Assembly (NCBI GenBank): GCA_036172245.1
Contig: JAYWIR010000018.1
Span: 3,224,001-3,288,000, forward strand
DNA: 64,000 nucleotides
Reading direction: 5' to 3'
From: Raillietiella orientalis
Taxonomy: Eukaryota
Shown: positions 7,021-56,960 of the stretch, piece after piece
How positions within the stretch are numbered: the first letter of the stretch is position 1
Layout: each line of letters starts with the position of its first letter
Made by a program: the position numbers and the translations under genes
The notes under the pieces: generated by a model
The model's input: the letters and a program-made list of their open reading frames with translations, nothing else
Databases searched by the model: none
Told to the model about the DNA's origin: nothing

Positions 7021-7102
7021 AAGGGAACTTCAAAGTGTCTCCCCCGAGGAACTTGTGGTCTCTCCCCAGTGCTTGAACACCCAGTGACGTTCCGATGACG
7101 CC

Positions 7103-13829: not shown

Positions 13830-14225
13830 TGATGGAAACTGGATGCCTCCGCTGACTGGAAGGGATTGCAAGTCGACCCTCTGGGGCCTTTCAGAAATCG
13901 AGTAGCCCTTCGAGGTTCCCCTCAGGTTGTGAACAGGGGGCCGTACCATGGAGCTAAATGATTGGGAGTCGGAGAAGTTGGTCGGGAGTTGCCTCTCCAG
14001 AGTGCAAGAAGCGCGTTGCTCCCCTCGGGGAGCGCCGTTCAAAGAAATTGTGAAGCGTCCCTTCGAGGTTCTCGTCGGTGGAGGAGGAAAGAAGGAGTAG
14101 TTCCCTTGCGGGTTTCCTTCGAGATGAAACGAATGACCTCATCCGAAGGACCAAGGACTCCGGAGAGAATATAAGAGAGCTGCTCCCTCCGAGGATCCCT
14201 CTGGAAAGAATATGGAAGACAACAG
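13830..14225 (+). repeat. Copy of unclassified repeat module
   Basis: GVGEVGRELPLQSARS...EEERRSSSLAGFLRDETNDLIR is nearly identical to the minus-strand copy at 26.4-26.65 kb. Confidence 0.75.
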
Positions 14226-14580
14226 GGTGTGACCACAGAGAAGGGAAAAACTGTGGTGTCACTTCCCGATCGTCGCGGCAGGTGAGGTGCGAAGCGCTCG
14301 AGCGTCAATCAGACTCCGAAACGGAGTCTGACGCAACTGCCAACCGGCGTATCACACACGCGGAGGCGGCAGCGCGCTGGCTAATGCCTTCAGGCGCGAG
14401 GCGCATGCCGCGAGACTGAGAGCTCACCCCGGAGCGCCAAGCAACGACACCGGGAGACGAGCACTCGATTGCGTGCATCACCTCGGAGGCCGGTGGCGAC
14501 CGCACCCTCCAACCCGTCGTGCTGCTGACTGCCCGCTCGCCCGACGAGGTGAGCAAAACGGCCCCAATTTCCCAGCCGTG

Positions 14581-17500
14581 ATGCGAGGAATCGAGTGTTC
14601 TCGTCGTCTGTCCGTCGCGTGTTGGAACGTGAACGGTCTGCAGAACGACGAGAAGAGGCGATTGGTAGCGAACGCCCTGCGCCCCTTTGACCTCGCGCTC
14701 CTGCAGGAGATTCACGTAATCTCCGACGAACAGGCTGCGGAAATCGAGGAGCGCACTGGCGGTGCGGCGACCCACACACGGCGGCGTCGCGTTCCTCTCA
14801 AGAGGAAAATTGGCGGGAGCGGTGCGTGGCATTCGATTCGACGATGATTGGCTAGTGGGCCAACTTGTTGTCAAGTGGTCCGAGTCCATCGATCTCGTCG
14901 TGATGAACATCTACGCGCCGAGTGGCTCCCGCTACCTCGAAGAAAGAATTGCACTCTTCGAGGAAGTGTAGAGCTACTGGCTCAACACCACCGGCCCCCA
15001 AGTGGCGCACCTCGTCGCAGGGGACTTCAATGTCCACCTGCTCTCTGATGAATGGAGCTGCCCGAGGGAGTTCTTGCTGGACATCGAGATGTGCGCGTCA
15101 GTGCGCGCTGCCAACTTGATGGTCGGTGTACCTGAGATGCCAAGATCGCCGGATCACATCTTCCTCGATGACAACCTATATTCTCGTGTGAGGAGGAGAG
15201 AAAGATTGCCGTCCGAACTTTCTGACCATCACAGGTTGGAGTTCGAGCTCCTTCCGCCAGGCAAGGGGCCTCCGTTGAACAACTGGAGGATGCTGGAGGA
15301 CTGGCTTAGCCATCCAGAGGCGGCGGAACATCTCCGTCAGCACCTTCGGGACTTCGTCATCCGCGAACGGAAAAACATCGCCAATCTCGCGGACTGGGAT
15401 TATTTCTTCAAGAGATCGGTCCGCGAGTTATGCGAAGGGTTCCCCTTGCACCGGCTTCCACGCGGCTTTGGAGAAGGCGTCTCCAACAGCAGGAGTTTCC
15501 TGCAGGAGCGCACCATTTCGAGACGCGCGAATGTCAGCCGGCTTGCGGAGTACAAGGCCAGAGACGAGAGCCAGGTCTGGCATTCTGGAGCATCTTGTTT
15601 GCTCGACGAAAAGGGCCAGGAATGCTCAGCACCAGCCGGTATACACCGCATTGTAAAACGCTTTTACTCATCGCTGTATGAGGAAGCGCCAAAGGAAAAT
15701 ATCTTTTCCGAGATACTTCTGTCTCAGGATGCTCCCGTCGTCAGCGAGGAGGAACGCGCACGTCTCGACGAGTCCTTCACAGAGGAGGAAATTTCGTCCG
15801 CCATCGCGGGGTCCAAGAGACGAAAAGCGCCAGGCGAGGATGGGCTCCCCGCGGAGTTTTATCAGTGTTTCGCGGCGGAGCTCACCCTCCTGGTGCTTAG
15901 TCTCTTGTCGCTGATGAGGTTTGAACCCGGTCACGCCGGGACGTTTATTCATGGAACAAACCACAGACTTGAAGGGATACGTATCCCTCCAAGACACAAG
16001 AAACTCCCATACAAAAAGTTCAACCCGGAAAAACCACCTGTACGCAGGCCGTCTTCGAAAAGAAGGGAACGGAGGGAGGGGACACAAAATAAACCCAAAA
16101 AGAAAGGGAGGATGGGGACAGGGATCTTTGGTTTGAAACGTTCCTCTTCTTTCTAGAAGCGCCGCTTGACGATGGCGCTTTCCCAGACGACTTTTCTGGG
16201 AAGATGAGACCACCATGCAGCTGCCTTCATAAGGTTGGCAGCTATCCTGGTGGCGCCCTTACGCTGCGAACTTCCTTCGATCTTACGGCGGGTCGTCACG
16301 ATGAAATGGATGCAACAGGTTGTTGCGATCACATCGCCCTTCTTCATTCCGCCTTCGCTGAGGAAGCGTCGCAGCAGGCTTGTCGCTGATGAGGGATTCG
16401 GGGGATGTGCGAGGGTGCGTCTCTTGCCGAAAGGTGGAGACGCACGCCATCTGAACAACTGGAGTCTGATCACCATGGTAAACTCGGACATGAAGTTGAT
16501 CTTCAAGCTGTGGGTTGTGCGGCTAGGGAGGATCACCGAGTCCTTGGTAAGCCCGGAACAAACTTACGCTGTTCCCGGGCGGTCCATGGACGAGAATCTT
16601 CTGTTCTCCCGCTCGCGCAGCGCAGCAAAGTCGGGCAACGGCCGCTACCGCAGGCAAAAGATATCGGCACAAGCGGCAGGATGGTACGCCGGGTGCCTTG
16701 GCGGTCACAGTCGATCTCCACAAGGCGTTCGACTGTGTGAACCAGGAACTCCTATTGGAGTTTCTGGAACTCCTCGGTCTCCCAGCACAGCCTCTTAACT
16801 ACTTGCGCTCTGGCCCCACGCGCTCACCTGTATTGCTTTCAGTGGCTGCCACGGTATTCCCAGGGACATCCGGCAGGGCAATAGTTTGATCCTGTTGCTC
16901 TTCAGCATCTTTGAGTTGATGCAGAGGGCGTACAGGCTGACGCTGGAGTATCTGCCTAGCTCTTGCTCGGGAACGCCTGCCGTGGCTGCCTATGCAGATG
17001 ACCTGCTTCCTCTGCTCCCCAAGTCCACCCCTGCGTCCAGTGTCGAAGACCTGATTCGTCGGGGAGCGGGCGTGAGCGTGAACGGGAAGAAGAGCGTGGT
17101 CGTTCCTGTGGGTGCGTCGTGGGAGGGCAGTCCGACTGGATCCGCCTGGGGATCCCAACGAGCCGGTACTTCAAGTACCTTGGCGTTCCGTTGGGAACTT
17201 CTGCCAGTCAGAAGCCTGGTCAGGTCATCTCCAGAAAGTGAAGTCGTCGATCGGTCCGTTACTGGAAGGAACCGCCGGAACGGATCGCGGTGTGGAACGC
17301 GTTCGCGGCCCCCCCCCTTTTCGGCCCCCTGCTTTTTGTTTACCCCGTACCCCGCGAGATGAAGAAGAGAAGGGACCAAGGACCTCCTGCGCATCGCTCT
17401 GTGGGGCAGCGGAAGGCCTCGTGTGCCTCTGCAGGACTTGTGCGCTCCGCGTCGGGACGGCGGTCTTAGCCTCCTGACGCTGGAGCGCGTGGAAATTCAG

Positions 17501-18768
17501 CTGCGATGGAGAACCTTGGCCATCGCGGAGAAGTACTGGAGCACCCATTGGTGCGTTCCGGCCCGCCTCCTCACCACACATGTATCCAGAGCGGGAGGGC
17601 TCCCCTCTTTTCTTCTGTGCTCCAGCCGAAAAATAAGAAGATGTGGCCTTCTTCTCGGACGCATGGTCACCCTGGCCAAGGAGAATGGCTGGATGGCCTG
17701 CAGCCCGCCAACTCCAGAGCATGGCTGGAAGGAACAGTTGGCACGTAGGTGAATCTGAACCAGAAAAGTGGTGAATCCTGGAACCGCCTGCGAACCGGCA
17801 TCTATACCCGCTGCACGCTGCGGAACATGCTCGAGTGTCCCTCCAGAAGCATGACCACGGCGGAGACGACCCCACTGACCACGGCACTGCCCTTCTTGAG
17901 GAGGGTGCTCAGCAGCAGCCGAACGCCGAGGTGGCAAGTCTCCTGCCGAATAGCGCGCAAGGAGAAGCTGTTAAGAGATTGGACCACGAGGAAACTGGCT
18001 GACGCCGCGACCCCGAGCGTCCTTCCGCGAGGAATTCAGAGATGTAGCGAGCTGCTGGGCATCCCGCCGGATGACCTAAAGTGGCCCCCGGTATTCAGAG
18101 ACACATCCACCCTCCCCCTCAAGTGGCAGGAATCGGCGCTGCTGCTGTTGCAATGGGGTCTTCCCTGCAACACGCGCCGCCACCACTGGATGTTGGGGAA
18201 GGTGGCATAGAAGTGTACAGTGTGCGGGGAGAAGGAATCCCTCCCCCACCTATTAGTGGACTGCGCTGCCCTCCGACCCTTGTGGGAACGTTTTGCTACG
18301 ACCCTCCGGATGCCTGTCGGCAGTCCTCCCAGAGACGTTGTGAGACTCCCTGCAACCAGCCTCAGTCCTGGCAGCGCTCTGCTGCCTCCGAGGGATTGTG
18401 GCTGCGTGGAGCGCAGCCAACAGAGGAAGCAGCGATAGGGACCATTTCGTACACGCGGGTCGCTACCTGCGAATCGAGATCGGATAATCCCATCTGGGAG
18501 CTATGACGAGGGACCTCGAGGGCATCCTGGAAAGGATGGTCTCTTCCTCCAGCGGACTGTGATCCCTTCCCGGCCCTCAAAAGTGTTTCTTTTTTTTGTT
18601 TCCTTTATTTTTTTGTGTGTTTTTTCCCCCATCCCCCTCCGCTGCCGAGGAGTCTCGAGCCGGTCTGCGAACCGGCTTCCTGGCAGGCCCCTTGAACTAT
18701 TGGCCGTAGCGGGGTCTAGTACCGCAAATATACTGTGTTTAGAAATAAACGCCCCGGCGTGACCGTGT
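14581..18768 (+). mobile_element. L1/Tx1-like non-LTR retrotransposon, near full ORF2 (APE-RT-Cys/His), pseudogenised, with 3'UTR
   Basis: Motifs in the expected order: CWNVNGL, LLQEIH, GGVAFL, NIYAPSG, AGDFNV, SDH, KAPGEDGLPAEFY, LLPKGGD..LNNW..ITMVNSDMKL, SPEQTYAVPGRS, VDLHKAFDCV, AYADD, FKYLG, GGLSL, KCTVCGEKESLPHLLVDC. Multiple stops and frameshifts. Ends AATAAACGCCCCGGCGTGACCG. Confidence 0.93.
15920..16378 (-). mobile_element. 5'-truncated LINE 3' end nested in the RT of the 14.6-18.8 kb copy, with 16-bp TSD
   Basis: Perfect direct repeat CTTGTCGCTGATGAGG at 15904-15919 and 16379-16394. The insert ends AATAAACGTCCCGGCGTGACCGGGTTCAAA. Confidence 0.9.
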
Positions 18769-18769
18769 G

Positions 18770-20083
18770 GGAACTCCCCAGGTGGTCTTCATGGAAAAGT
18801 CATGGAGCATTATCTGGTGCCAAACTTTAGATGTTCTCGTCCGGCAAGCCACCGGTAGCGTAGGACTCGCGTCCTTCCTTGCGCGCCGTCCATGCAGTCT
18901 CATCCACGGCGGACTGCACCTGCGGCAGGTGGCCACGCTGGCGAGGAAAAACGGATGAATCTCGTGACGTTCCGCGAACGGTAGTGCCCGGCTGCAGGAA
19001 ACCGTGCGCATATGAGCGAGGATCCAGGAGCCAGGAGCGGAACAGGTACAACGCTTCCTGTACGCGCGTAACAACAACTGCATGCTCCGGGAAATCCTGG
19101 AAGATCTCGTGAAGAGTGCGTGTGCAAGCAGAACCTCCCTCGCCGCCGCGCTGCCTTCCCTTAGGGAGCATATGGATAGCAGCAGCCTTACAACTAGATG
19201 GGAGGTTACTGTGGAAATCTCCAAAAGGAGGAAAGGGCTGGGCGAGCGGAAACGGGCGATCTCATCTACTCTGCGATCCAGATTTCTGAACCTCGTGGAC
19301 GTTTGCACTGGAACATGCTACTAGGTATTCTGGAGGAAGGCCTTCAGTGACCAGTGCTGGTGAACTCCCCTTGAAGTGGCAGCAGTCGGCAACGATGCTG
19401 CTGCACCGGGGCCTCCTGTGCAACACCCGCCGGCATCTGTAAACACAGGTGTTTGTGAACCCAAACTGTGCGGGAATGGTGTGGGAATGCAAGGTGTGGG
19501 AATCCTTCCCGCACTTCCTAGTGGACTGCGTTGCCCTCCGACCCCTTTGGGGACCCTTTGCCGCCACCCTTGGAACCTCCGGTGGCAACCCCAGAGACGT
19601 TGTAAAGCACCTCTTCCTAAGTGACGATCTCACGTCAGCCGCATCCCTAGCAGCAGTATGCTTCCTACGAGGGATCGTGGCTACATAAAGCAATGTCAGA
19701 GGAGGCCAGAACGACAGAGGCGCCATCTATTTTGCTGTCCTCTTCATGAGGACAGCGTTCAAGATGGCCCTATCTGAGAGTCTTGAAACAGGAACTTGCC
19801 GACATCCTTACAAGGATGCAAAGGGCGCCCTCCAGCACACAATGATCCCTTCCCGAACCCCCCCCCCCTCCTCTTTCTTTCTTTTTACTGTCTTTTTCTG
19901 TTTTGTTTTCTTTTGTTTTTTTCTTCTTGTTTGTCTCCCTTCCCCTCTGCTACCGAGAACCCTGCTGTTCTGCGTGCCAAATCCCGGCAGGTTCCTTGTC
20001 CTTTTTATTAGTAACGTGGATCAAACGTCCTGCCTCAGATATGTAGGTTTATTTTATAAATAAACGCCCAGCGTGACCGGGTA
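18770..20083 (+). mobile_element. 5'-truncated L1/Tx1-like copy (ORF2 C-terminus and 3'UTR)
   Basis: LPLKWQQSATMLLHRGLLCNTRR and ESFPHFLVDCVALRPLW parallel 18.1-18.3 kb; terminal motif at 20059-20083. Confidence 0.85.
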
Positions 20084-20089
20084 TTGCTT

Positions 20090-20720
20090 CCAAAGCCCGT
20101 GGGCCATACAGACCCATCTTGCGGGGGGGGGGGACTGGAAACCCACGACGCACCAACTTCTCGGCGTCGATCCTCCACGTGGAGATTCGTACTTGCAATG
20201 ATTCGTACTTGGTACCACGCGCGGAGACTGGTACCAAGAATATTTTCCAGTGCCTCTTCATGCGTTACACCCTGCCGCCAGCCGCAACTCTAGCAGTTCT
20301 CTGTTGTGTACGCGGAATGGTGGCAAGCTGGAACACCAGAAGAAGAGACCACAACAGCAGGGATGCCATCTATTAGACGGAAATCTTCTTGAGGACCACT
20401 TCCCGATAGCCCCAACTTTAAGAAAACAATGCAGAACTTGTCAGCATGCTGAACAGGATGCATAGGACGCCTCACGGCAAATAGTAATCCCATCACCACC
20501 CCTCCTGCCCAAAAACATCCCCCCCTCGCTCTTTTACTCTTTTTTTTTTTTTATGGTTTTCCCTCCTCCTTCGCCGCTGGAGCGAACCTCATCGGTCTGC
20601 GTACCGGTTTTGACAAGTCTTTCGCGCTTGTTTGAACCTAGTGTTCTTCCACAATATTGTAAAAAATAGCGACTTTATTATAAACTTTTGCAGAAAATGC
20701 CCCGACAAATCCATGTGACA
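20090..20720 (+). mobile_element. 5'-truncated LINE 3' fragment
   Basis: KNIFQCLFMRYTLPPAATLAVLCCVRGMVASWN..RRDHNSRDAIY, T-rich UTR, and variant terminal motif AAAATGCCCCGACAAATCCATGTG. Confidence 0.75.
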
Positions 20721-24929: not shown

Positions 24930-25840
24930 TTTATCACCTGGTCATGCCGAGAAGTTGATTATAAAGAATAAACATACTTGTGTGGGGCCATCAGCCCTAC
25001 ATTGTCCGGAAATGCTCAGAACCTGCCGAGTAACTAGCACGCAGGCCGGCGAGGTTCGCCTCGGCAGAGGAGGGGGAGGAGGCAAACAAAAATAAAATTA
25101 AAACAAAAAAATATATGCAGTAAATTGGGAGGGTTAGGGAAGAGATCACCGGGAGCTGGAGGGCGTCCTCTGAAAGTTTTATCCGAGTATGCAGCAGGTA
25201 GGGCCATCTTACTGCCGTCTTTAGAAAACTCAGAGAGAGGCAGATGGCATCCCTATCTTGCCATTCTCCTCTCGCATAACTCTAGGCCGCCACAATCCTA
25301 CGTAGGCAGCAAAGAGTTGCTAGGGATGCGGCAGACGAAAGGGAATCGCCCAAAAAGAGGTGCTTCATCACGTCCTTGGGATGGTCCTTTGATGCTCCAA
25401 GGACTGTTACGTAACGTAACCACAAGGGCTGGAGAGCAACACAGTCTTCAAGCGGGTGCCGGAGGGATTCCCATTCCCTGCAGCTGAAACAATTGGCCCC
25501 GGTCCAATGGAAGCGGAGGGAGTTGCACGGGGGACCCCACTGCAACAGCAGAAGTGCCGACTCCTGCCAATTCAGAAGAGTCCGGTGGTTCTTCAGGCCT
25601 GGGGTCACTCAGGTCTTCTAGCGGATTCCCAGCAGCTCACTCCAATGCAATAGTCCCTTGGGTGGGGCACTTAGGGTCCCAGCGTTGTGGGCTGACCCAT
25701 ATAGTTCCCTCGTCTTCTGAGTGATTTCGCAACTGACCTCGCATTTGACCAGCTGGTTAGTGTCCAGGTGCTCCCTCAGAGAGGGCAGTGCCGACCCTTG
25801 CTTGAGGTTCCTTCCAAACGACTCGTGGTCCTTCACCTAT
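24930..25840 (-). mobile_element. 5'-truncated L1/Tx1-like copy (C-terminus and 3' end)
   Basis: LLNWQESALLLLQWGPPCNSLRFHW..CFSCREWESLRHPLEDCVALQPLW; variant terminal motif at ~24930-24962. Confidence 0.85.
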
Positions 25841-26219: not shown

Positions 26220-26700
26220 TAAGGTTCATCAAGTGCTAAAGAACCATCCGCCTCCTCAGGGAAGAGGGGCCCACAAGCTCTTTAATACTGTCCACCCACC
26301 CGAGGGCATCTCAAGTTATTGGGAGCAACCCTGTAAGTACCACCCTATGAATCCAGGAATGCTCGGAGGAAGGAGTCCGCTTCTCTTGAGTTTGCTTGAG
26401 AGGGAACCCCGAGGGGACTTTCTGCCATATTCCCTCCGGAGGGATCCCCGGAGGGAGCAGCTCCCTTATTCTCTCTGGAGTCGTTGGTCCCTCGGATGAG
26501 GTCATTCGTTTCTTCTCGAAAGGCACCCTCAAGGGAACTACTCCTTCTTTCCTCCTCCTCCGGCGATAACCTCGAAGGGACGCTTCTTGCACTCTGGAGA
26601 GGCAACTCCCGACCAACTTCTCCAACTCCCTGAGGACAGCTACCTGGCGGTCTCGCCTGCAGGAAGTCTCCATGAAAATCGTCACCATCGACAGCCGCTT
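26220..26700 (-). repeat. Copy of unclassified repeat module
   Basis: RELEKLVGSCLSRVQEAS...RELLPPGIPPEGIWQKVPSGFPLKQTQEKRTPSS, shared with the other copies. Confidence 0.75.
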
Positions 26701-27449: not shown

Positions 27450-28355
27450 AAGAAGGTGTTCTCACGTACAGCGGAAGCGAACCGATCTGCACACATGAGA
27501 GGGGCACGAGAGAGGCGCTTGCGACACGATGCAAGATTTGGAACCGAAGGGACAAAAAGATGACGTCGAGTTTCCCGATGCGCTCCTGGATAGTTTCCCA
27601 CGGCTGGATGAATGGATTCTCGAGATCATCTGGAACTTTCTAGTCCAATGAAAAGCTCGGAACATCATACGTTCAAGCAGAAGACTCCAATTAAAGGCAT
27701 TCGAGATGGAGAACTTCAGCTGTGTTCGTGCATTATTTTCTTCATCTGATATGGTAGAATAAACAGAAGCCTGTCTGCCATGCGTCGTCTTCTTCTTGGG
27801 CTGCAGTTGTCATGCGTCCAAGACGCAGACTCCAGGAAAACGTCAGGCAATCTTGTCGCCGCAATGCGTAGCGTGCTATCGGTCCCAGAGTTGAGATACG
27901 GCCAGTCCCGATCTCTTGGGTTTCAGGTTCACAAAAGCCAATTTTTCCTTTTCCTTCCTTTATGCTGTACGAAGGACTCGTTGAGTTCTCCCGTCCAACT
28001 ACCTTAACCGAGATGCCAGCACTGGGCACATGCTCATAGGAAAATGAAGGGGAGATAGAAAAGTCAAGTTTTTTTTGATACAGAGCAGTTGCCATCACCT
28101 AGCAGAACCATTGCTGAGGGGAAGCGAAAAGACTACAATGAGAAAGGCACCTTGCCTCCTCCCCACGATGCATTTTGCAGCAGCTGGAGCAGCGGGTTCG
28201 CTACCGATTGAAGTCATACAGCTGATCCATTTGCTTCTGACTAGAAAAGAGTTCGAGCCACTGTACTTCCGGTGCTCATTGCACGGATGCCTTTTCTCTC
28301 CATTGCGAATGCTTGGACAGTTCAGGAAGACGCGTTCCGCCCCATCTGAAGTATT
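27450..28355 (-). mobile_element. Possible RTE-like LINE endonuclease remnant
   Basis: TSDGAERVFLNC (NxNGxRLxxFC-like) and FLVRSKWISC (IDxxLVxxRW-like); heavily decayed. Confidence 0.3.
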
Positions 28356-28358
28356 TCG

Positions 28359-28918
28359 TTTTTCACCCGGTTGTCCCTTGGCATTTATTATCAAGAATAA
28401 TGAGAATACATTTATGTGGTAAGACACTGCGTTCTACGACGTGCTTTGAGCCTGCCGAAGACCGGTACACAGACAAGCGAGGTCCGCATCGGCAGCGAAA
28501 GAAAAGGGAAAACCGAAAACAAAACTAAACAAAAAAAAAGAAAAAAGAAAGGTTTCATTTGGGAAAGGGAAAATGAAGGAGTCGAAAAGGAGGAAACAGA
28601 GGAAGAGACCACTGCTTGCTTTAAGGAGTCATCTGAATCCTGTGCAGGATGCTGACAAGTTCGGTCCGCATGTTGCCCAGGTGAGACCATCTCTTGGCGA
28701 TCTCCAAGAAGATCCACTGCCAGTGGATGGCCTCTTTTTCATTTTGTCCTCTTCTTCCTGCGTACCAGGCCATCCCTATCCCGAGAAGATTGCAGAGAAT
28801 TTCAAGGGACGCGGCTGGCGGCAGTGCGGCACGCCCGAAGAGGTGTCTGAAAATGTTCCTGGGGTCGCACACCGGGATGCCTAGGGTCCTCGCAAGGCGA
28901 TCTCAAAGGGATCGGAGG
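28359..28918 (-). mobile_element. 3' part of the L1/Tx1-like copy that is interleaved with the virus
   Basis: RSL*DRLARTLGIPVCDPRNIFRHLF...EAIHW..; terminal motif AATAAATGCCAAGGGACAACCGGGTGAAAA at 28359-28389. Confidence 0.85.
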
Positions 28919-29362
28919 AATCAGGATTTCGGAATGAAGGTGTCATATAGAAACATGTTGATGTTTCAATCGGCGAGTTTACCTGAGCATTTTGGAGATA
29001 TGTTCAATTTAAATTACGGAAGTGTATCGAATCGTATAAGCGGTTTTGAGGAAACTCCTGGTTGTTGGACTCGGTATTTTGGTGTTCGTGGTATTCGTTG
29101 GTACAGTCGTGGATTTGTTGTGGATAAGAGGACACGAGGAACTGTAAATGTGGAGTCTATGAGTCGTTGTCCTTGGGTGGATGCTGGTGAGGGTGCGACT
29201 TTGGACTATGAAAGTCGTATCCAAGTTCGTTGTGGGCGTTTCCACATAATGAAGCATATGTCTGGTGTTGATATACCAGATGCTTTGAAAGCAGACTGTA
29301 GCCGTGGTGTGTGTCCAAAAAATGGTCGAATGTTAAGTGGATATACCCAATATTTTGTGTAA
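28919..29362 (+). pseudogene. cap: Endogenous CRESS DNA virus capsid protein, C-terminal 147 codons
   Basis: Open frame NQDFGMKVSY...WTRYFGVRG...SRCPWVDAGEG...TQYFV*. The RYF and PWxD motifs recall circo/cyclovirus-like capsids. It converges on the Rep 3' end, is followed by AATAAA, and is GT-skewed unlike its flanks. Confidence 0.7.
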
Positions 29363-29417
29363 CGCACAAATACTATGTTATGTTTAGAACACCCAGAGAT
29401 GTTGGGTTGTACACATA

Positions 29418-29438
29418 AATAAAGTTAATTCTTTTATT
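29418..29438. terminator. Convergent poly(A) signals of the viral 3' intergenic region
   Basis: AATAAA on + at 29418-29423, after the cap stop, and AATAAA on - at 29433-29438, after the rep stop at 29488. Confidence 0.7.
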
Positions 29439-29487
29439 GAGAAGCTGGGGAGGAGGAGGGAGACAAAGCTGACAAGGAGGAGTCAGG

Positions 29488-29738
29488 TCAGTCGCGGGCT
29501 TGCGCTGTACTAGGGCTTGAAGTGCAAGTCCAAGGGAGAATGGCTCCTTCTTCATTCATCATCCAATCAGTGAGACGATTTGCATCATGACTGGAAATAT
29601 TCCTGACAATCCATCTATCTGATGACATTTTTTCGTAGTTTGGCTCCCAATCAGCAAATACAATTATATGAGGGGGTTGAAAATACTTGATTGACCCTGA
29701 TATTTCGAGTGCAAGATAATTCCATTTTTGAGGCTTTC
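29488..29738 (-). pseudogene. rep: Endogenous CRESS virus Rep, C-terminal SF3 helicase part
   Basis: ESLKNGIILHSKYQGQSSIFNP/HIIVFADWEPNYEKMSSDRWIVRNI...ARD*: motif B', motif C (VFAN-type) and Arg finger (DRW); one frameshift near 29670. Confidence 0.9.
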
Positions 29739-30220
29739 ACAGTCTAGAAGCATGTGCGGGAGAATCTCCCTGATCCCGCACCTGTCGCTCCGCGCACCTA
29801 CACGCCCCCAGGTCCGATGATGAAGGCGCTCTTTGCCTGGGAGAATCCCATGCGCTATCAACAACGGCCACTTCTGTCTCTTGAGGGGAAAGATGCCACT
29901 GTCCAGCACTCTAAAGACCATTTCACGCCTTCCAGAAGGGTTGTAAGCAGATCCCCCAGTCCAGGTGTTCTGCTCCACCAAAGCAATCATCTTACAAAGT
30001 GAGGTATTTCGTTGGGAATCCAGGAAGTTTATCGCATCAATCGAACTTCATAGATTGCCCCTTGCACTTCCGCTCTCACTCTTTGCACCCTCAAAAGCGG
30101 ACATCCTGTGCAACATCAAGTCAAGACAACTTTTTGACAGAAAGCTTCCCTACTAGCAGGAGTTATGCACGGTGACTATTCATGGTTCATCTTCTTACAT
30201 GAGGACCAGAGGACCACTCC
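29730..30220 (-). mobile_element. L1/Tx1-like segment lying between the two viral pieces
   Basis: FPLKRQKWPLLIAHGILPGKERLHHRTW...DRCGIREILPHMLLDCESL is the family's C-terminal Cys/His region and joins in frame to 28914 when the viral piece is removed. Confidence 0.85.
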
Positions 30221-30947
30221 TCTATGATGATTATCTTTTGGCCTGCATACATGTAGGAAGCATCTGCTTTTTTGCAGTTATTGAGGTATAGGGTGTCGTA
30301 TTTTAGGCAAATGTCTTTTGCGATGGTTGTTTTTCCGGAGTTTCCTTGGTAATCTGTATACCAATGGATGCATCTGTCGTTTGCATCTTTGGATATTATT
30401 CCTAATAAGTTTTTTTGCCATAATTGAAGTAGTTTTCCTTCCATAGCGTCTGTTTGGAAATATTTTGTAAATCGGATGCTGTCAGTTATGAATAGTCTAT
30501 GTTTATCGTATATTTCGGGTTTTTCTCGCCACATCCATCTTTCTGTTTTTCCTTCTAGTATCCACTGTTGTATCTGGAAGAATTTTTTGTGGTATATGTA
30601 TTTAATTTTAATTTACCTGTTTATGAACTGATTGTTTTGATTCTATTTAGAGTGCTCCATATGTCCATGGGTTTTGGTCTTCTCTTTCACAGTATTGCTC
30701 GGGTGTTCCTCTGCTTGGTTCTGGGTGTGCTCTCTTGAATTCTTGTAATTTTTTAAAGTTTTGGTATGGTTGTAGCTTCGTTAAGCTGGAAGTATCCCTG
30801 TATGTGTTTCGTTCCTTGGATTCCTATTTCTTTAACTAATATAGCATATGAACATTTATCTTGTAGCCACTTTTCGATGTTTTCTTCTTCACATGTTGTG
30901 TAGTTATTCACTGTTAAGCACCAGTTGTTTGTCACAGCATAAGGCAT
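30221..30947 (-). pseudogene. rep: Endogenous CRESS virus Rep, HUH endonuclease plus Walker A/B
   Basis: Motif I WCLTVNN, motif II KHIQGY, motif III region AHPEPSRGTPEQYCERE, Walker A RCIHWYTDYQGNSGKT, Walker B start QKIIII. At least two frameshifts and in-frame stops at 30.6-30.75 kb. Confidence 0.95.
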
Positions 30948-30980
30948 CTTGTTTTGGGTGGGTGGGTTTGAATCTTCTTC

Positions 30981-30987
30981 TTATATA
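30981..30987 (-). promoter_or_regulatory. TATA box upstream of viral rep
   Basis: TATATAA on the minus strand, about 34 nt upstream of the rep ATG at 30947. Confidence 0.6.
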
Positions 30988-30998
30988 GTGCTTATCTG

Positions 30999-31028
30999 GG
31001 TCAAGAGGATTGTATTACCCTCTTGACC
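30999..31028 (+). other. CRESS virus origin of rolling-circle replication (stem-loop)
   Basis: Perfect 10-bp stem GGTCAAGAGG/CCTCTTGACC with loop ATTGTATTAC. The nonamer TTGTATTAC (31010-31018) differs by one base from TAGTATTAC and lies between the divergent rep and cap starts. Confidence 0.93.
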
Positions 31029-31034
31029 TTGAGC

Positions 31035-31175
31035 ATGTTAGGACGTGGTGCGAATCGTGTTAGCAAGATAAGGAGGCGCCGAGCTATCGCTCGGCGTCGC
31101 AGGATTAATTTTTTGAGACGTCGTACTTATATTCGTTATCGCAATTATTCGAAGTATAGTTGGTCTGGTCTGTAG
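31035..31175 (+). pseudogene. cap: Endogenous CRESS virus capsid, Arg-rich N-terminus (truncated; not in the ORF track)
   Basis: MLGRGANRVSKIRRRRAIARRRRINFLRRRTYIRYRNYSKYSWSGL*, starting 6 nt after the origin stem. Confidence 0.85.
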
Positions 31176-31400
31176 TCTCAGTGAGACACACTGAAACCTC
31201 ATAGCGAGCAGGTGGAAACCTATTGCAAACTGGCCTTTTGGGCCGTGTAAAGACTTCCCTGGCAACGCGGCACTCGCGACCCGCAGTTTGCCGTTCCTGC
31301 TCCAAAGATTGCAAACTGGCCGCACCCTTAGAATTCTGTCCATGCTGCCCTGTTCTGACGCAGAGACGCTTTGGAGTGCATTTCCTTAGATTCAAATGCT
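31165..31400 (-). mobile_element. Possible RTE-like endonuclease N-terminal remnant
   Basis: RVAREV...ARYEVSVCLTET resembles ARELxRYxIDIAALSET. Confidence 0.35.
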
Positions 31401-34299
31401 AGTCATTGCCTTTGAAAAGCGAAATGAAAGGATAGAGGCGGCAGCTTGCCATCTCCAGAGGTCGCTCATGTTTCCCAGCAGGCGACTTGGAAGTCGTTTC
31501 TGACTCAACAGATGATTTCTCCTTACGGACGTGATATCATTATGCCTTTCTAAGTAGATCCGCATTCCACTCTATTCTACTCATGAACATAAACAGCCGA
31601 CCATTTGCCCATTTTGACCACTCGTGCGGCTGACGATCGTCAAGGAGACAGCTGAGGAAGATCTCCTCTCTCTTTGTCTTTTCTTTTGTTCTCTTTTCTG
31701 ACATGAGCTGTACATTTTGTCGTTCTAACAGCCACTAATCGGAGCATCCTTCTGCATCCTCCTGGAAGTGGATGTACATAGTGATACTGGTCAGGCTGCA
31801 TAGATTTCTCGCAACCATTTTCATAAAAGTTCAGGATTGCGCTATATGAGATAGTTCTCAGAATGCTGCGTTCTCATTCCCGTGGAGCTATTAACAGTAA
31901 GTGCAGAAGGACATTAAAAGAATACAAACATCGGTCTCGGATCGATGGAATGTGGCACACGTGAAAGAAGAAATTGCGCTAGCAGAGAAGGAAGAAGGAA
32001 GAGGGGGATTAAACGAATTGCTTTGTCTTCCCCTTATCAACATGTCTCATTGAACCTCACTCTTTAACCATCCCTGCTCGAAAACCAAAACTTGGAAACT
32101 CTCTGAGCACCGAGTTAATTGCTTCATCCTTTCGTCACGACCTTTTTGCGGCCAAGAAATTTTGCTTGTAATCTGGAAGGGCTTCAAGTTGATGGTCGCT
32201 CTGTACATAATGCAATGGCCTTCGGTCGGGTAAATGGTGACCTGCTAAAATGACGTGAGAGATGAGGATGCATCGTGTAAGCACCACGCATCTTCTAGTT
32301 GATTAGGTGATCCAAGTAAATCATGCTGGAGATCTTGCAATTGAATTGCATATCTCCACACAAGATCCATGCAAAGAAGCTGCTGCATCGATCTTCGTGC
32401 TGAAAACGCGCATGTCATTAAAAATCCTTCTTTAGAATATTGTGTGGTCTCTATCCTTCGAAAACGGAGATTTGTTGCCATGGATATTCTGCCTTTGTGA
32501 TGTATTCATCAACAGCAAATGCAACGTGCAAACAGAATAACGATTTTCGCGGACGCGTGTTGACTGCGTGTCAGCCTTCGACCTTGTGCGCGGCATTGAG
32601 CAAATCTGAGCACACTTCCAGCAAAAACACATCACCAGCACATGTTTGCAGCTGCGACAGTCATGAACTAGGAACGGAAACCAGAAAAGGAACCATTCCC
32701 TGGAGGCAACACCATTTCCTATTTCGATCGTACCGCGCCGAGGCTACGTGGTATCGAACTCAGACCGAGTTCCTACTATAGTGAACAGACAACGCCAACC
32801 CATCCTTCATTCCCACTTGCCACCTTCCAGGAATACAAGCGAGCGTCACCGTCTCCGCGTGCCTCGCATTCTGCCGTCCGCATCACTAACACTATCATTC
32901 CCAAGACGAACGCAACCATGGAACATCGCTCGGCCACACAGTGCTCTCTTATCGCATGGACAGGAGCTCACTGAGTGAGTAGTGGGGACTGCAGCCGAAT
33001 CCGATACTGTGCACGCAGATATTCCACGGGCAGTAAGCAATTGTTGTGAGCCACAGTGGCCACAACTCTTACCACTCCCGTCGCAACCCTCTGAGGATCA
33101 ACTTGCTCCAGATCCACACATTCAAGGTCGTCCGTGGGAACGACGGCAGAGCAATAGGCTGGTCGAAGGATGCAGCCAGAAGGAAGACAAATTGCGGATC
33201 TTTCTCGGCGACCTCAGCCACCAGGACTCAGTCCACGCCTCTCGTATGTCCGAGCACCCACGCAGCGTACTCAACGGACCGCAGTCACGGCCAGCCACAC
33301 GCCACTCGACCCTTTCACCACAACCACCGTGGAACAACGCCCTCCTCCTCCTGTCTTCCCCCTTCCATTTCACGTCGACACGGGACTGCGGTTCCTGAGA
33401 GTGATCCATCCTGTCTCGATATACTCTCCCGGGAAACTGGACGTACGAGTGCGCGCGCTTCCCTTCCCGACGCGCTCTGCTCCTTTCCCGGGAATTTTAA
33501 GCTTCCTCAACTTGCCGTTATCCGTTGGATACCGGGAGATGCTGCAACGAACGCTATTCGGGAGCACGGTTGCTTCACCCTCCACAGGCGCGCGCGTGGC
33601 GGCGCAGCGCGAGCCAGACGCTTCCTTCCGCCGGGCCGCTTCCTGCACTGTTTCCAAGCATCCGGAAGGGAAGAGTGCGGCAGCCTGCGCTGGCAGCCGT
33701 ATGGGCGTGGCACCCGCCAGTGTCGTGAAGCCCGTGGACACCGCAAGAAAAGCATCGACGTCGAGCTGGCTGCGCCGTGGAATTCCAAGTCCGCTTGCCT
33801 GCGGCGCTGACGCTAAGGGCGGCTCTGGAATCGGCCACGGCGAGGCCGCCACGCGCGCGCCTGTGGAGGCCGGCGGCCCCTAATCAGGAGTGGACCGTTC
33901 GCGGCTGGATCTACAGGGCAGCAGGGTGAGTCCTCTCCCTGCTTCGCTGGCACCTCGCAGGAAGAGAGCCAAGTGGTCCCCGATGATGTGGCGTGGTCGA
34001 ACCTCTGCGATGCCTCCCCCACTCCCTTGTGGAAGGAGGGTGCAGCCACGGTTCTCGAGCAATTTTAGAACCAAGGAAGGAAGAGCAAAAAGAGGAAAGC
34101 TAGAAGGGAGCGAAAAGCAGCGCAGGTAAAGAAGGACCCCATCAAACACACTGGTGGTTTCAATGATTGGCCTGTCTCCGGGTCCAAATCCCCTCGCAGG
34201 TTTGATGGAATGGAGAGGCAGAAACTCCCAGTGTTTCAAAGCAGCCTTATCTTTATACGAGGTTGCCGCGCCTTTCCGCTTTGTCTGCTGGTGCAGCTA

Positions 34300-36289: not shown

Positions 36290-38667
36290 ACATTCTGCCA
36301 TCACCTGAAACGGCGAACCCTCCCATCCATGTGTGCACCTACCTTCTGGATGGCAGATTCTCAATTAAAGGATGTCAAACGAAGTTGCTTGCCAGACTCT
36401 GGGCTGACCGACTCGGGCGGGTAGCTGAATCCGTGTTCAGCCCGGAGCAGACTTACGCAGTTCCCGCATGAACCATGGAGGCCAACTTGTTCCTAGCCAA
36501 CACCTGGTGGCAGTTGCAACAGGGCAAAGCACAGGCGGATCAATAGAATCCTGGATTCTCCTGTGAGCAGGAAGGGGAAGACCAAAGAGAAGAACCGTCA
36601 TCCTTGCAGTCGATTCGCGAAAAGTTTTCGACGACATCGACCAGGAACTTTTTCTGAAGATACTGGAGCACATGGGATTTCCGTTCGTCTTCTTAGACTC
36701 TCTGCGCTCCTGCTGGCGTTTTGCGTATACCCTTTTTTTCAACGGCCGGTACATGTACAGTGAGCCGGTTCGGCGTGGCATAAGGCAGGGTGACAGCCTG
36801 AACCTCCTGCTCTTTAATATCTATTTCGAGTTGGTGCTGAGAGCATATAGGGAGACTCTGGCAACCCTGCCCAGCTCGTGTCCAGGCATGCCGCCCATGT
36901 CAACCTATGCAGACGATCTCTTGCTGCTGCTCCCCGAGTCCACCCCGGCTTCTGCTCTCGAGGAGTTATTCGAGTTGTTCAGCCGCGGGATGGGCTTCGA
37001 GGTCAACAGGGCGAAGCTGTGCATCATAACAGTTGGTGCGGCGCGGGCAGGACGGCTGGGCTTGATCTGCTTGAGGTTCCTCACAAGCGGGTTCTTTAAA
37101 TACCTAGGCGTTCAATTGACAGACTTTTGCTTAGCAGAAGTCTGGTCCGACAGTCTCCAAAAGGTGGAGTTGGCGATCGGCCCGTTCTGGGACGGCAAGT
37201 TTTACTTGCAGAAACGGGCCGCAGTGTGGAAGGCGTTCGCGGGTCCCCTCCTTCGCTCCGTGCTTTTGTTTTCCACGCCATATGCCAAATAAAGAAAAGG
37301 ACAAAGGGCCTCCTAAGAAAAACACTGTGAAGCACTAGGAGGCCGCGCGTCCGTCTCAAAGAATTGTGCACTCCACTTAGAGACGGTGGACTAGACCTCG
37401 TGACTCTGGAGCGCATGGAACGACAGCTACGATTCCGGAAACTCGCCCTTGCGGAGAGTTATGGACAACGCTATGATGCGTTCCCATATGCCTACTCGCA
37501 AGTAGAGTGACTGGCCGCGAAGACTTGTCCTCGATCCTTGTGGCTAACGAGCGCAGTCTGAACCATTGTGGTTTTCGCTGCGTGATTTGGTTACCCTGGT
37601 GAGGGAGAAGACGTGCATCAACTGCCTCCCCGCGAACTGCACACCCTGGCATCAAGAGTTTGTTTCTGACCGGACTAAAATCAACGGCAACGGCGAGTCG
37701 TACTATTCCAGCCTCCGTAGAGGCTGGAACGCTGCACACTCCTGCAAGAGATTGTTTCGAACTCACGGAAACTTTTGTGGTAATCATTAACCCCACTTGT
37801 CTTAGTGCCTCCATAAGAGACGTGGACAACTCGGGAGCAAGCGGACGCCGCAATGCCGAGTGTCCCGCCTAAAGGACTTGTGCGCAGGGGAGAGCTGCTC
37901 GGCATACCCCCGAAGGAGGTGAAGTGTCCTCTAGAGCGTTGGGACAGTAGCAACCTCCCCTTGGAGTGGCAAGAGACGGTGTGGCTAGCTTTGCATTGGG
38001 GACTCTTTTGCAGGGCATCCCTCTCTTACTGGACTCGTGGGAGTGCGGATGACAGCTGTTACAAACTGCGGAAAAAGGGGAGCCTTCCCTCATCTGCTAA
38101 TTGAGTGTATCGAGCACCGACCCATGTGGAATCCACTGTCGTCGATCCTGAAAATTCTGGATGGCGAACCAAGAAACATTTTCCATCGCCTCCTAATGCG
38201 AAACGCTCTGACAGCAATCATGGGCGGGGCAGTTTTGTGTACCATATGCGGAATCCCCACAGAAACGTCTGCACCCATGCGAGACCACAACAGCGGGAAA
38301 TCCACTCACTGGACGGTCATCTCCATCGAGAAAACTTCCCTATCAGGCCGGCTACAAACTTCGCGACCAGCAACTGTCAGCATCCAAAACCGGACGAAGA
38401 GGAACACGCGCGGCAAACAGTAATATGTTGTCTGTCCAACGTTTCCCGGAGAACATTGCTCTCCGTTTTTGCTTTAGTTTATTCTTGTGTTTTTACTTTT
38501 GCGGATTAACTCCCTCATCGCCAGCGGAGAAGACTGCCGGTCCCAAAGGACAAGTGCTAGGAGACAGGCGGAACCACGTGTTATGCCTGAAAGAACTTAA
38601 AGAAATTATTATAAAATATCATTTCCAAAATTTTGATACAAAATGCCCCGGTATATGCGAGTGAAAG
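36290..38667 (+). mobile_element. 5'-truncated L1/Tx1-like copy, RT through 3' end
   Basis: KLLARLWADRLGRVAESVFSPEQTYAVP, AVDSRKVFD, GIRQGDSLNLLLFNIY, TYADDL, FKYLGV, DGGLDL, LPLEWQE, PHLLIEC; terminal AAAATGCCCCGGTATATGCGAGTGAAA. Confidence 0.92.
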
Positions 38668-48300: not shown

Positions 48301-49182
48301 ACCATCCAGACACTGGACTGTAAACTAGGAAGAAGAATTTTGCAAGGTGTGTGCAAAAAGCGAATCTGAGCTCCACTTGGTCATTTAGAAATCAATAAGG
48401 CAAGACTGGAGAGTCTTGAATAAAGTAAATCTGTAAGTAAAAACTCTATTGCAGTTAATGTGTCCTGAAATGAAAAGTAAAAACAAAAAGCAATGATGGT
48501 GGGAATCTGGAAATGAGATAAATTCTGCTCGCAGGTTTCAAGATGAGTTGAAAGAGAACCTCTGTGAATAAACGAAGCTTCTATTTGGATCTCACTGTGG
48601 ACTAAAATGTGATTAAAGCAATTCGAAAATAATGGATCTGATGTTCAGTTCCCTCAATTTGAAATGGCTGAGATCAGACAAAGGTGACCCTCGTTTGTGG
48701 CAAAGAACACATTCATTACAATGATCTCAGCTTTTTATAAGTCTGGTAAACTGTTAAAAAGTGATATGTAGACAAGAAACATTGATGAACTCGCAGTAAC
48801 AAATATTTTTCCATAAGCTTACACTTCAATATTAAAAATGTAGTTTTACAGTATTCTAAGTCACTAGAACTTTCAGGACTTTCAGGATTGGCTAATCAAG
48901 TACTTTTACTTCTAGAAGTTATCAAAAAAAAATTGGGGCTGAACAAAGTATTTGTGTGAGTAGAGCTTTGAAAGCATATGCACATATAACAAAACTGTAA
49001 TGAACTGGCTTGCAAAATCACACTTCTTTGTAAGTACAAAACATCATGAATGACTAGAAAATAAAACTTTTCTCAGTATTTATTTTATACTGATATAAAA
49101 TAATGTACGCGTTCTTATTGATATTGCTCACAAAAAAAATCCTTATCTAACACAAAGAATGATGAACAAAGATGATGGAATA

Positions 49183-56300: not shown

Positions 56301-56764
56301 AATGTTTCAACAAAATTTGTTCACTTCCTATGGATCGCCAGATAAGCAGTCGTTCTTTCTTGGAATCTTGCAAATATTGTGGCATAAGCGTACGCTGTAG
56401 TTATGTTTGAAATTAATTATTGAAAAAAGTCTAAAAAGTTGAACTGATTTTTAAAATGCAAGTAGCGTTAGTTGTAGGATTCGTTACTGCTTTTGGAGTA
56501 AAATCAATGCTTTGCAATACTGACATTATGCATTTAGTGTACTGTAATGTAATATATCAATTAATGTTATATTAAGTAATATTACACCATAATGATGTGA
56601 TTAGATTCAAATTTTTAATTATAAATTTGCATTTGTTATACAGTACTTTTTCTAGACAAATGAAATGATTGCTTTTGCTCAGCTCTTGGAAACATCTGTG
56701 AGGCTGTTGATTATTAAAGTCTGGAGACATGCCACCTGTTTTTTTAAATTTTTGTTTTGAAAAG

Positions 56765-56960
56765 TGGAATAGACCAAGATTCTATTCTTGAACGCTTATC
56801 AGTTATGTCTGGAAAATGTTTTTCCATTTCTAGTTTGGATGATTTGCTTGATGCTTGTCGTGAAGATGCTGAAGATTTGCTTCTTAATTTGGGATTTGGA
56901 TCTACTCAGTTGTCAAGCTTGGAATCTCGAATTCCAGCGCGTTTTCTAAAACCTTCAAAA
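56765..56960 (+). CDS. Internal exon of a KRAP/SSFA2/ITPRID/Tespa1-family protein (IP3R-binding domain)
   Basis: SISSLDDLLDACREDAEDLLLNLGFG....LESRIPARFLKPSK matches the family pattern S..LL....DPEE.L..LGFG......IP.RF..PS. Flanked by AG and GTATGA. Other exons were not resolved. Confidence 0.8.

What the first reader, a model, noticed from the sequence alone, without database searches (positions are those of the whole stretch)
28359..31175. LINE and virus interleaved, each resuming where it left off: possible RT template-switch capture
Seen: the order from the LINE 3' end is LINE (28359-28918), virus (28919-29729), LINE (29730-30220), virus (30221-31175). Removing the first viral piece restores an in-frame LINE reading, PHMLLDC-ESL-RSL(W)DRLARTLGIP, matching DC-AAL-RPLWERFATTL at 18.26 kb. 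GAGG sits at both junctions (28915-28918 and 29730-29733). Removing the middle LINE piece leaves a collinear Rep, IIII...ESLKNG, lacking only a short stretch (roughly 15 codons by comparison with related Reps). The ESL codons fit both the LINE and the Rep consensus, so they may be microhomology. A single insertion of either element into the other does not produce this pattern. Inference: the LINE RT, extending from the 3' end, jumped LINE to virus to LINE to virus, integrating a DNA-virus genome. The template would be the complementary strand or a read-through RNA crossing the origin. I found no convincing TSD around the whole unit.
Basis: partly seen in the sequence, partly recalled or inferred. 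Interest (0 to 1): 0.88.

Follow-up and report, generated by a model that had tools for sequence, protein, structure and literature searches.

The report
Endogenous ssDNA virus interleaved with LINE
A decayed, nearly whole genome of a small circular DNA virus sits in a host chromosome as two pieces on either side of a 490-base host segment that begins with an old retrotransposon fragment, and this layout is better explained by DNA repair or replication copying than by the retrotransposon's own enzyme.

Summary
The A-B-A-B layout is real. A Cressdnaviricota genome (Rep with HUH and SF3 helicase parts, origin hairpin, putative Cap) lies permuted as V1 (28919-29729/38) and V2 (30221-31175). Rep lacks exactly the modal 14 codons between the pieces. 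The LINE reading resumes across V1 with a 4-nt GAGG overlap, checked against four other LINE copies in the window.

The middle piece is only partly LINE. Similarity stops at 29903 and the open frame stops at 30047. An exact 10-mer abutting the LINE 3' end (28351-28360) recurs at 30004-30013. This is a candidate target-site duplication enclosing only LINE plus V1, which would leave 30014-30220 as host flank with V2 outside the LINE insertion.

V2 is also bracketed by a short repeat (TCT). The viral part carries the origin, genes of both senses and a possible retained intron. The strand a LINE reverse transcriptase would need is the non-encapsidated one.

My best reading (about 0.5) is one DNA-level event, either two-template copying or double capture at two nearby breaks, with the LINE a bystander. 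LINE reverse-transcriptase template switching stays possible (about 0.2).

No genome or reads were available, so assembly and empty-site tests remain open.

The parts
28351..28360 (.). Left copy of the exact 10-mer GTATTTCGTT, abutting and overlapping the LINE 3' terminus. Candidate target-site duplication.
   Evidence: Empirical null: 96 of 2000 random boundaries have a >=10-mer within 2 kb, and 249 of 20000 have one within a 340-nt interval at this distance.
28359..28918 (-). LINE 3' part (L_down): the end of ORF2 (28621-28917, with one in-frame stop where other copies have Trp) and the 3' UTR up to the family's shared 3' terminus.
   Evidence: tblastx to copies at 19.5, 20.2, 38.1, 25.2, 18.3 and 7.4 kb; 3' end alignment; codon comparison.
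28915..28918 (.). GAGG, first copy of the 4-nt repeat bracketing V1.
28919..29362 (+). V1, part 1: the C-terminal 147 codons of the putative capsid gene plus its stop codon, an open frame.
   Evidence: No homologue was found. The assignment rests on position, opposite sense to Rep and continuity with the Arg-rich N-terminal piece.
29363..29487 (.). V1, part 2: the intergenic region between the converging 3' ends of Cap and Rep.
   Evidence: Sequence read; ORF ends.
29488..29738 (-). V1, part 3: the Rep C-terminus. It reads ESLKNG..SKYQG, then a frameshift near 29695, then KYFQPPHIIVFADW..SSDRW.. to the stop at 29488-29490.
   Evidence: tblastn of 150 Rep relatives.
29730..29738 (-). Nine ambiguous bases (codons E-S-L) that fit both the LINE reading and the Rep ExxKNG motif. 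They include the second GAGG (29730-29733).
   Evidence: codons of LINE copies A, B, C, E against the locus; Rep consensus.
29739..30003 (-). LINE ORF2 part (L_up). Similarity to other copies is shown for 29727-29903. The frame stays open to 30047.
30004..30013 (.). Right copy of the 10-mer GTATTTCGTT. Candidate target-site duplication marking the 5' truncation point of the LINE.
30014..30220 (.). Segment of undetermined origin, probably host flank of the LINE insertion. It has stops in all three minus-strand frames and no similarity to any LINE copy. An 8-nt tandem duplication (GAGGACCA twice) lies at 30201-30216.
30221..30947 (-). V2, part 1: Rep from its ATG (30947) through the HUH motifs and the SF3 helicase Walker A and B (..IIII, then the E/D codon at 30222-30220). 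Defects: a frameshift near 30750-30790 and an in-frame TAA at 30647-30649. A possible 43-nt GT..AG intron lies at 30574-30616.
   Evidence: Pfam Viral_Rep.
30998..31029 (+). Origin-like hairpin with an 11-bp stem and the loop ATTGTATTAC (31009-31018) on the + (Cap-sense) strand.
   Evidence: DNA fold -11.6 kcal/mol, z -4.4. Comparable xxGTATTAC hairpins occur in 7 of 11 related viral contigs, 2 of them also antisense to Rep.
31035..31175 (+). V2, part 2: the Arg-rich N-terminal 46 codons of the putative capsid gene (15 Arg), ending in TAG at the junction.
   Evidence: There is no Pfam match.
31176..31178 (.). TCT, repeating the first three bases of V2 (30221-30223). A 3-nt repeat bracketing V2.

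Best explanation
This is a decayed endogenous copy of a roughly 1.8-kb circular Rep-encoding ssDNA virus (Cressdnaviricota).

The viral genome is opened in the capsid gene and again in Rep. Its two pieces lie in the same orientation on either side of a 490-nt stretch of pre-existing host DNA. That stretch consists of the 5' part of an older, 5'-truncated LINE insertion (28359-30003) plus about 207 nt of the LINE's target-site flank.

I infer one DNA-level event in which the LINE was a bystander. There are two versions:
(a) A repair or replication polymerase alternated between the host template and the viral circle. Each template stayed tethered by the stretch of nascent strand already paired to it. 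The two returns used 3 nt (TCT/AGA) and 4-9 nt (GAGG, up to GAGGCTTTC) of microhomology, and copying of the circle ended once the circle was complete.
(b) Two fragments of one doubly broken viral molecule were captured at two staggered breaks 490 nt apart.

Shown: the anatomy, the contiguity of both partners and the short repeats. Inferred: the order of events, the polymerase and the template strand.
For: LINE boundary:
- An exact 10-mer lies at the LINE 3' boundary and again at 30004-30013. Empirical chance is 0.048 within 2 kb (96 of 2000) and 0.012 within the relevant 340-nt interval (249 of 20000).
- Independently, the LINE frame has 0 stops in 106 codons (29730-30047) but 5 in the next 58 (Fisher p 0.005). 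All three frames are closed in 30048-30220.
- LINE similarity stops at 29903. No RT or LINE similarity was found at 31176-33600, apart from two short weak segments at 32777-32812 and 33641-34075, and none of the 12 minus-strand ORFs tested between 31041 and 34874 matched a Pfam family.

Short repeats: each viral piece is bracketed by one, GAGG for V1 and TCT for V2.

Nature of the viral part:
- It is genome-like, not transcript-like. It has the origin hairpin, convergent Rep and Cap with the intergenic region, and 43 extra bases with GT..AG ends where relatives have none.
- The pieces add up to one genome (811 + 955 + 42 nt), with no overlap between V1 and V2 and an in-frame Cap join.
- The nonanucleotide is on the + strand. 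By the usual rule for these viruses, recalled knowledge, the abundant single-stranded circle is then the + strand. It could template a nascent minus strand, which is the opposite direction to LINE first-strand synthesis.

Germline residence rather than contamination: Rep carries one stop and two frameshifts.

Precedent: microhomology-mediated break-induced replication and end joining are proposed for integration of another small circular DNA virus (passages of PMC7470373 read).
Against: - The 10-mer is a single observation at p about 0.01-0.05, found after looking. The four other LINE 3' ends tested gave no duplication to compare with.
- This LINE subfamily is only about 40% identical in protein to the other copies. 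Lack of similarity in 29904-30220 is therefore weak evidence, since 29904-30003 is not detectably LINE either.
- Continuity of 30220 with 31176 in the uninserted host could not be tested. No genome is held.
- Two of the four junctions (28918/28919 and 31175/31176) show no microhomology.
- Exact closure of the viral circle in Cap is unproven because Cap has no detectable relatives.
- Version (b) needs the right fragments in the right orientation, roughly 1 chance in 8 by my own counting.
Confidence: 0.5

Rival explanations
1. During target-primed reverse transcription, the LINE reverse transcriptase copied the LINE RNA from its 3' end. It then switched to a viral template, back to the LINE RNA within 4-5 nt of where it had left, and again to the viral template 42 nt beyond its exit. 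This wrote a whole DNA-virus genome into the chromosome. A variant places the switching in second-strand synthesis, between the first-strand cDNA and the virion circle, which have the same polarity.
For: - The LINE 3' terminus is intact at about 28359, as expected for target-primed insertion.
- All four pieces are collinear on one strand.
- The LINE resumes with a 4-nt overlap and Rep resumes 14 codons on.
- Up to 9 nt (GAGGCTTTC) fit both partners at the return to the LINE.
- Double template switches by LINE enzymes are in print (abstract of PMC2104539).
- A 7-mer, GAAGTAT, lies at 28348 and 31151 and could be a duplication around the whole unit.
Against: - The 7-mer is near chance level (about 0.4 expected matches in the region compared, my calculation). 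It sits 4 nt off the LINE end and inside the Cap frame.
- The better candidate duplication, the 10-mer, excludes V2.
- 30048-30220 does not look like LINE ORF2.
- The template would have to be the non-encapsidated strand, or a genome-length unspliced read-through RNA whose start and end happen to meet at one point in Cap.
- The published chimeras are fusions of transcript copies, and I saw none that returns to the first template.
Confidence: 0.2
2. Several steps. First a simple integration, for instance the viral circle recombining with the LINE at the shared CCTC or GAAAGCCTC, or a LINE inserting beside an endogenous viral copy. A later three-breakpoint rearrangement then exchanged neighbouring segments, either by local transposition of one segment or by tandem duplication followed by two deletions.
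For: - The shared 4-9 nt at 29730-29738 is what a circle-into-LINE crossover would use.
- The locus is old enough to have gathered one stop and two frameshifts in Rep.
- Tandem and rearranged endogenous circovirus copies are known (passages of PMC6372831).
Against: - The later breaks would have to restore both partners almost to the base: LINE within 4-5 nt, Rep with exactly the modal 14 codons lost, and Cap pieces without overlap.
- No leftover duplicated segment of virus or LINE exists in the window.
Confidence: 0.12
3. Artefact. A chimeric assembly, or chimeras made during whole-genome amplification, between host DNA and a contaminating viral circle.
For: - The assembly could not be checked against reads or a second assembly.
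- Viral G+C (0.38-0.42) differs from the neighbouring DNA (0.46-0.53).
- Circular ssDNA is strongly favoured by strand-displacement amplification (recalled knowledge).
Against: - There are four junctions within 2.8 kb inside a 64-kb N-free window, and no shared repeat longer than 10 nt that could mislead an assembler.
- Rep carries a stop and two frameshifts, as a long-resident copy would.
- Both partners resume in register, which random chimeras would not do.
Confidence: 0.08

Closest known systems
Endogenous circoviral / CRESS-DNA viral elements, including those fused to LINE-1 in carnivores (Dennis et al. 2019, PMC6372831; passages read)
   Same: A germline copy of a Rep-encoding circular ssDNA virus lying beside LINE sequence. 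Near-complete genomes can be integrated: that paper reports tandem full genomes in cyprinid fish.
   Different: In that paper the LINE link is embedding of the element followed by copy-number growth through retrotransposition. Here there is one copy in the window. It is split by a host/LINE segment with both partners resuming in register, and the Rep is only 25-49% identical to its nearest relatives, which come from metagenomes.
Bipartite and tripartite chimeric retrocopies made by LINE reverse-transcriptase template switching (Gogvadze et al. 2007, PMC2104539; abstract read)
   Same: The LINE 3' part lies at the 3' end, all parts have one orientation, and more than one switch is allowed.
   Different: Those are fusions of different transcript copies bracketed as a whole by a duplication (14 bp in the fungal case). 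Here the partner is a whole viral genome with its origin and genes of both senses, the synthesis would have to return twice to a template already left, and the best candidate duplication does not enclose the whole unit.
Integration of small circular dsDNA viruses by end joining or microhomology-mediated break-induced replication (Merkel cell polyomavirus, Czech-Sioli et al. 2020, PMC7470373; passages read)
   Same: A DNA-level route in which viral and host DNA serve in turn as templates, with short microhomologies on one side of the junctions, giving complex virus-host-virus layouts.
   Different: In that paper the complex ('Z') pattern amplifies kilobases of flanking host DNA in tumour cells. 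Here nothing beyond 3-4 nt is duplicated, the host segment between the viral pieces is single-copy, the virus is an ssDNA virus, and the copy is a decayed one in a genome assembly, taken here to be germline.

Membership tests
Cressdnaviricota (Rep-encoding circular ssDNA virus) genome | Rep N-terminal HUH endonuclease domain | tested here: met
   Pfam PF02407 Viral_Rep, E 5e-8, 33.5 bits against a cut-off of 26. The stretches CLTVNNY, HIQGY and YCER align with motifs I-III of relatives. The motif names are recalled.
Cressdnaviricota (Rep-encoding circular ssDNA virus) genome | SF3 helicase with Walker A and B following the endonuclease in one protein | tested here: met
   556 proteins at E<=1e-3. 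G, G and K of GNSGKT are invariant in a 27-sequence alignment. Pfam RNA_helicase matches only at E 0.048, below its cut-off.
Cressdnaviricota (Rep-encoding circular ssDNA virus) genome | Origin hairpin with a nonanucleotide loop between the 5' ends of Rep and Cap | tested here: met
   11-bp stem with loop ATTGTATTAC, z -4.4. It lies between the Rep ATG (30947) and the Cap ATG (31035). Like hairpins occur in 7 of 11 related contigs.
Cressdnaviricota (Rep-encoding circular ssDNA virus) genome | Capsid gene | tested here: inconclusive
   An open frame of 46 + 147 codons with an Arg-rich start. There is no sequence relative, no Pfam match, and the single-sequence fold was unusable at pLDDT 30.5.
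Non-LTR retrotransposon (LINE) insertion | Homology of the locus pieces to ORF2 of a family that has a reverse transcriptase | tested here: met
   28612-28917 and 29727-29903 match six other copies. Copy C carries Pfam RVT_1 at E 1.7e-13. Copy A has a weak Exo_endo_phos match, E 5.6e-4, below the cut-off.
Non-LTR retrotransposon (LINE) insertion | Shared 3' terminus, 5' truncation and target-site duplication | tested here: inconclusive
   The 3' terminus is shared. There is no RT upstream. The candidate 10-nt duplication has p 0.012-0.048. The other copies gave none.
LINE reverse-transcriptase template-switch chimera | The partner is a copy of an RNA (transcript-like limits, processed) | tested here: not met
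   The partner holds the origin, both genes in opposite senses, the intergenic region and 43 extra GT..AG bases in Rep. Only a genome-length unspliced read-through RNA would fit.
LINE reverse-transcriptase template-switch chimera | One target-site duplication bracketing the entire chimera | tested here: not met
   Only a 7-mer at 28348 and 31151, near chance level. The 10-mer encloses LINE plus V1 only.
Microhomology-mediated template switching / break-induced replication | Microhomology at the switch points | tested here: inconclusive
   3 nt and 4-9 nt at the two Rep-side junctions, and none at the two Cap-side junctions. Numbers this small cannot be told from chance.

The most novel reading that the evidence does not exclude
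The retrotransposon machinery itself wrote a DNA virus into the germline. While inserting this LINE copy, its polymerase alternated between the LINE template and a circular viral DNA, either in first-strand synthesis or in second-strand synthesis on the cDNA. It returned twice to the place it had left on each template. That would be a direct route from LINE activity to endogenisation of a non-retroviral DNA virus.
Probability: 0.2. Interest if true: 0.85.

Novelty: new variant of a known kind. Interest (0 to 1): 0.45.

Why it matters
How small ssDNA viruses enter germlines is mostly inferred from bare Rep fragments. This is a nearly whole genome whose four junctions are still readable. Both partners resume in register, so the locus records the joining event itself.

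If population or sister-species data show the empty site, this one locus can tell polymerase template switching from end joining. It can also test directly whether a LINE enzyme can capture a DNA virus.

As it stands, it is one unusual integration structure with an unresolved mechanism. It is not evidence for a new pathway.

Tried and rejected
- Whole genome: none is held for this window. So no LINE subfamily consensus, no other viral copies and no empty site could be sought.
- Public sequencing runs for 28300-31300: none was listed, so no reads were laid.
- Earlier notes of this scan, by place, by sequence and by words: nothing.
- Word-indexed protein searches found nothing for the Rep helicase piece, the Cap piece or the LINE piece 29730-30047.
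- Viral contigs with the Rep piece: none. An alignment of 27 Reps was too poorly conserved for a scan. With relative P0003, 11 distant viral loci were fetched. None encodes a Cap like this one.
- Metagenome contigs: no relative of the LINE piece or of the Rep piece.
- Solved structures by sequence: only chance nanobody matches.
- AlphaFold on the Cap piece alone: pLDDT 30.5, unusable, so no fold search was run.
- Target-site duplications of the 3' ends of copies A, B1 and D: none found.
- Permissive tblastx and blastn of 29904-30220 against the window: only chance-level hits.
- Considered and dropped: the viral circle integrating by one crossover; a LINE inserting into an integrated or episomal virus; a chimeric viral circle carrying the host segment and recombining homologously with the locus. 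Each predicts a different order of pieces or a second copy of the 490-nt segment, and neither is seen.
Full report
**What is there**

The window is N-free eukaryote-like DNA of about 55% G+C, with many decayed non-LTR retrotransposon copies. No genome is held for it and no sequencing runs were listed. Everything below therefore rests on the window and on protein libraries.

**The virus**

The Rep gene can be followed on the minus strand:
- It runs from an ATG at 30947 through a Pfam Viral_Rep match (E 5e-8).
- It continues into an SF3-type helicase piece, 30223-30612. That piece finds 556 proteins at E<=1e-3 among 1.84 billion representatives. The few named ones include a Cressdnaviricota replication-associated protein.
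- Rep continues at 29738 with ESLKNG..SKYQG and, after a frameshift, KYFQPPHIIVFADW..SSDRW, down to a stop at 29488-29490.

Other viral features:
- An 11-bp hairpin with loop ATTGTATTAC lies at 30998-31029 (z -4.4).
- An Arg-rich open frame starts at 31035 on the + strand, and a second open frame of 147 codons runs 28919-29359. Together they make a plausible but unproven capsid gene. No relative, Pfam match or usable fold was obtained.

The two viral pieces therefore form one ambisense genome opened in Cap. They total 811 + 955 nt, plus 42 nt that are missing.

Rep is damaged by a frameshift near 30750-30790, an in-frame TAA at 30647-30649 and a frameshift near 29695. It also carries 43 extra bases with GT..AG ends (30574-30616) where relatives have none. 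This could be an unspliced intron. No other Rep-like sequence lies in the window.

**The register of the virus**

Of the 150 listed relatives, 133 have matches on both sides of the middle piece. In 69 of 150 both anchor residues could be placed. Of those 69, 50 have 15 residues between the last Ile of Walker B and the Glu of ExxKNG. The remaining 19 are spread over 13-31 residues, with one outlier at 233. The locus keeps one of these codons, so the modal 14 codons are replaced by 490 nt.

**The LINE**

- The family is a non-LTR retrotransposon. Copy C has Pfam RVT_1 at E 1.7e-13, and copy A has a weak endonuclease match below Pfam's cut-off.
- 28612-28917 and 29727-29903 match the ORF2 C-terminus of six other copies at 30-50% protein identity.
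- The 3' UTR ends at about 28359 in the terminus shared by the family.
- Across the viral piece V1, copies A, B and E read D-C-(A/V)-A-L-(R/Q)-P-L-W. The locus reads D-C-E-S-L, then V1, then one base and L-R-S-L-stop.
- So the LINE is contiguous if GAGG (28915-18 and 29730-33) is counted once. Alternatively, E-S-L is viral and the LINE has lost five bases.
- The nine bases 29730-29738 fit both partners. Copy C shows that this LINE position varies, and Glu is nearly invariant in Rep.

**The exception: the middle piece is not all LINE**

- No similarity to any LINE copy is detectable beyond 29903, even at permissive thresholds.
- The LINE frame is open for 106 codons (29730-30047) and then has 5 stops in 58 codons. 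All three frames are closed there (Fisher p 0.005).
- The exact 10-mer GTATTTCGTT overlaps the LINE 3' boundary at 28351-28360 and recurs at 30004-30013.
- In this window, 96 of 2000 random boundaries show a 10-mer or longer within 2 kb. Only 249 of 20000 show one within a 340-nt interval at that distance.

Taken together, these suggest an ordinary 5'-truncated LINE insertion (28359/61-30003) with an 8-10 nt target-site duplication. V1 then lies inside it, and 30014-30220 is host flank. V2 would lie about 207 nt outside the LINE insertion.

This is moderate evidence and was found after looking. The other LINE copies gave no duplications for comparison.

**Junctions**

- V1 is bracketed by GAGG. 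V2 is bracketed by TCT (30221-23 and 31176-78).
- The two Cap-side junctions show no microhomology.
- An 8-nt tandem duplication lies next to the junction at 30220.
- Around the whole unit there is only a 7-mer (28348 and 31151). It is near chance level, lies inside the Cap frame and sits 4 nt off the LINE end.

**Polarity**

- The nonanucleotide loop is on the + strand, antisense to Rep. The same holds in 2 of the 7 related contigs that show such a hairpin.
- By the usual rule for these viruses (recalled knowledge), the encapsidated circle is then the + strand.
- A cDNA growing from the LINE 3' end is also + sense. It would therefore need the complementary strand, or a genome-length, unspliced, read-through Rep-sense RNA whose two ends happen to meet in Cap.
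- A nascent minus strand copying host + strand and virion circle in turn needs only natural single-stranded DNA. It would also stop of itself when the circle is complete.

**Explanations**

One event in which synthesis alternated between two templates explains why both partners resume in register. Each template would be held by the part of the nascent strand already paired to it.

With the evidence above, I place the event at the DNA level in a locus that already held the LINE (0.5). Within that reading there are two versions:
- microhomology-mediated template switching;
- capture of two fragments of one broken viral molecule at two staggered breaks 490 nt apart.

The rivals are:
- a multi-step rearrangement (0.12), which must restore both partners almost to the base and leaves no intermediate trace;
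- an artefact (0.08), which is made unlikely by the decay of Rep and the in-register junctions but remains untested.

**Comparison with what is known**

- Endogenous circoviral elements fused to LINE-1 and amplified with it are in print (PMC6372831, passages).
- LINE template-switch chimeras with one or two switches, bracketed as a whole by a duplication, are in print (PMC2104539, abstract).
- Three literature searches that returned results listed no report of a virus and a host segment interleaved with both resuming in register. These searches cover open-access text only, and I read no supplements.

I rate this a new variant of a known kind: a complex integration of a CRESS-DNA virus. It is interesting mainly because the empty site would decide the mechanism.

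Noticed in passing
window 48000-58000: A block of about 10 kb at 0.28-0.35 G+C, set in DNA of 0.5-0.6 G+C. It holds no ORF over 115 codons and nothing gene-like.
   Followed up: partly
window 14300-18780, 19300-20090, 20200-20650, 36500-38550 (+); 7100-7750, 24990-25420 (-): Six further decayed copies of the same LINE family, about 40% identical in protein to the locus copy. They share a 3' terminus with a CCGG-type hairpin and no poly(A). Copy C keeps an RVT_1 match.
   Followed up: partly
window 26418-26611 and 14028-14222: A roughly 190-nt repeat in inverted orientation, 70-78% identical when translated. One copy lies just upstream of LINE copy A. It may be a LINE 5' region or another element.
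   Followed up: no
window 30574-30616 (-): 43 extra bases with GT..AG ends in the endogenous Rep, at a place where relatives are continuous. Removing them would rejoin the two frames. This may be a very short intron in a CRESS-virus Rep.
   Followed up: partly
window 30201-30216: A tandem duplication of the 8-mer GAGGACCA, four bases from the junction with V2.
   Followed up: no
protein P0001: The best-scoring Rep relative holds two tandem copies of the helicase half in one 354-residue protein. Its source labels it as a hypothetical protein of a Methylococcales metagenome bin. It is probably a mis-binned or concatemeric CRESS sequence.
   Followed up: no
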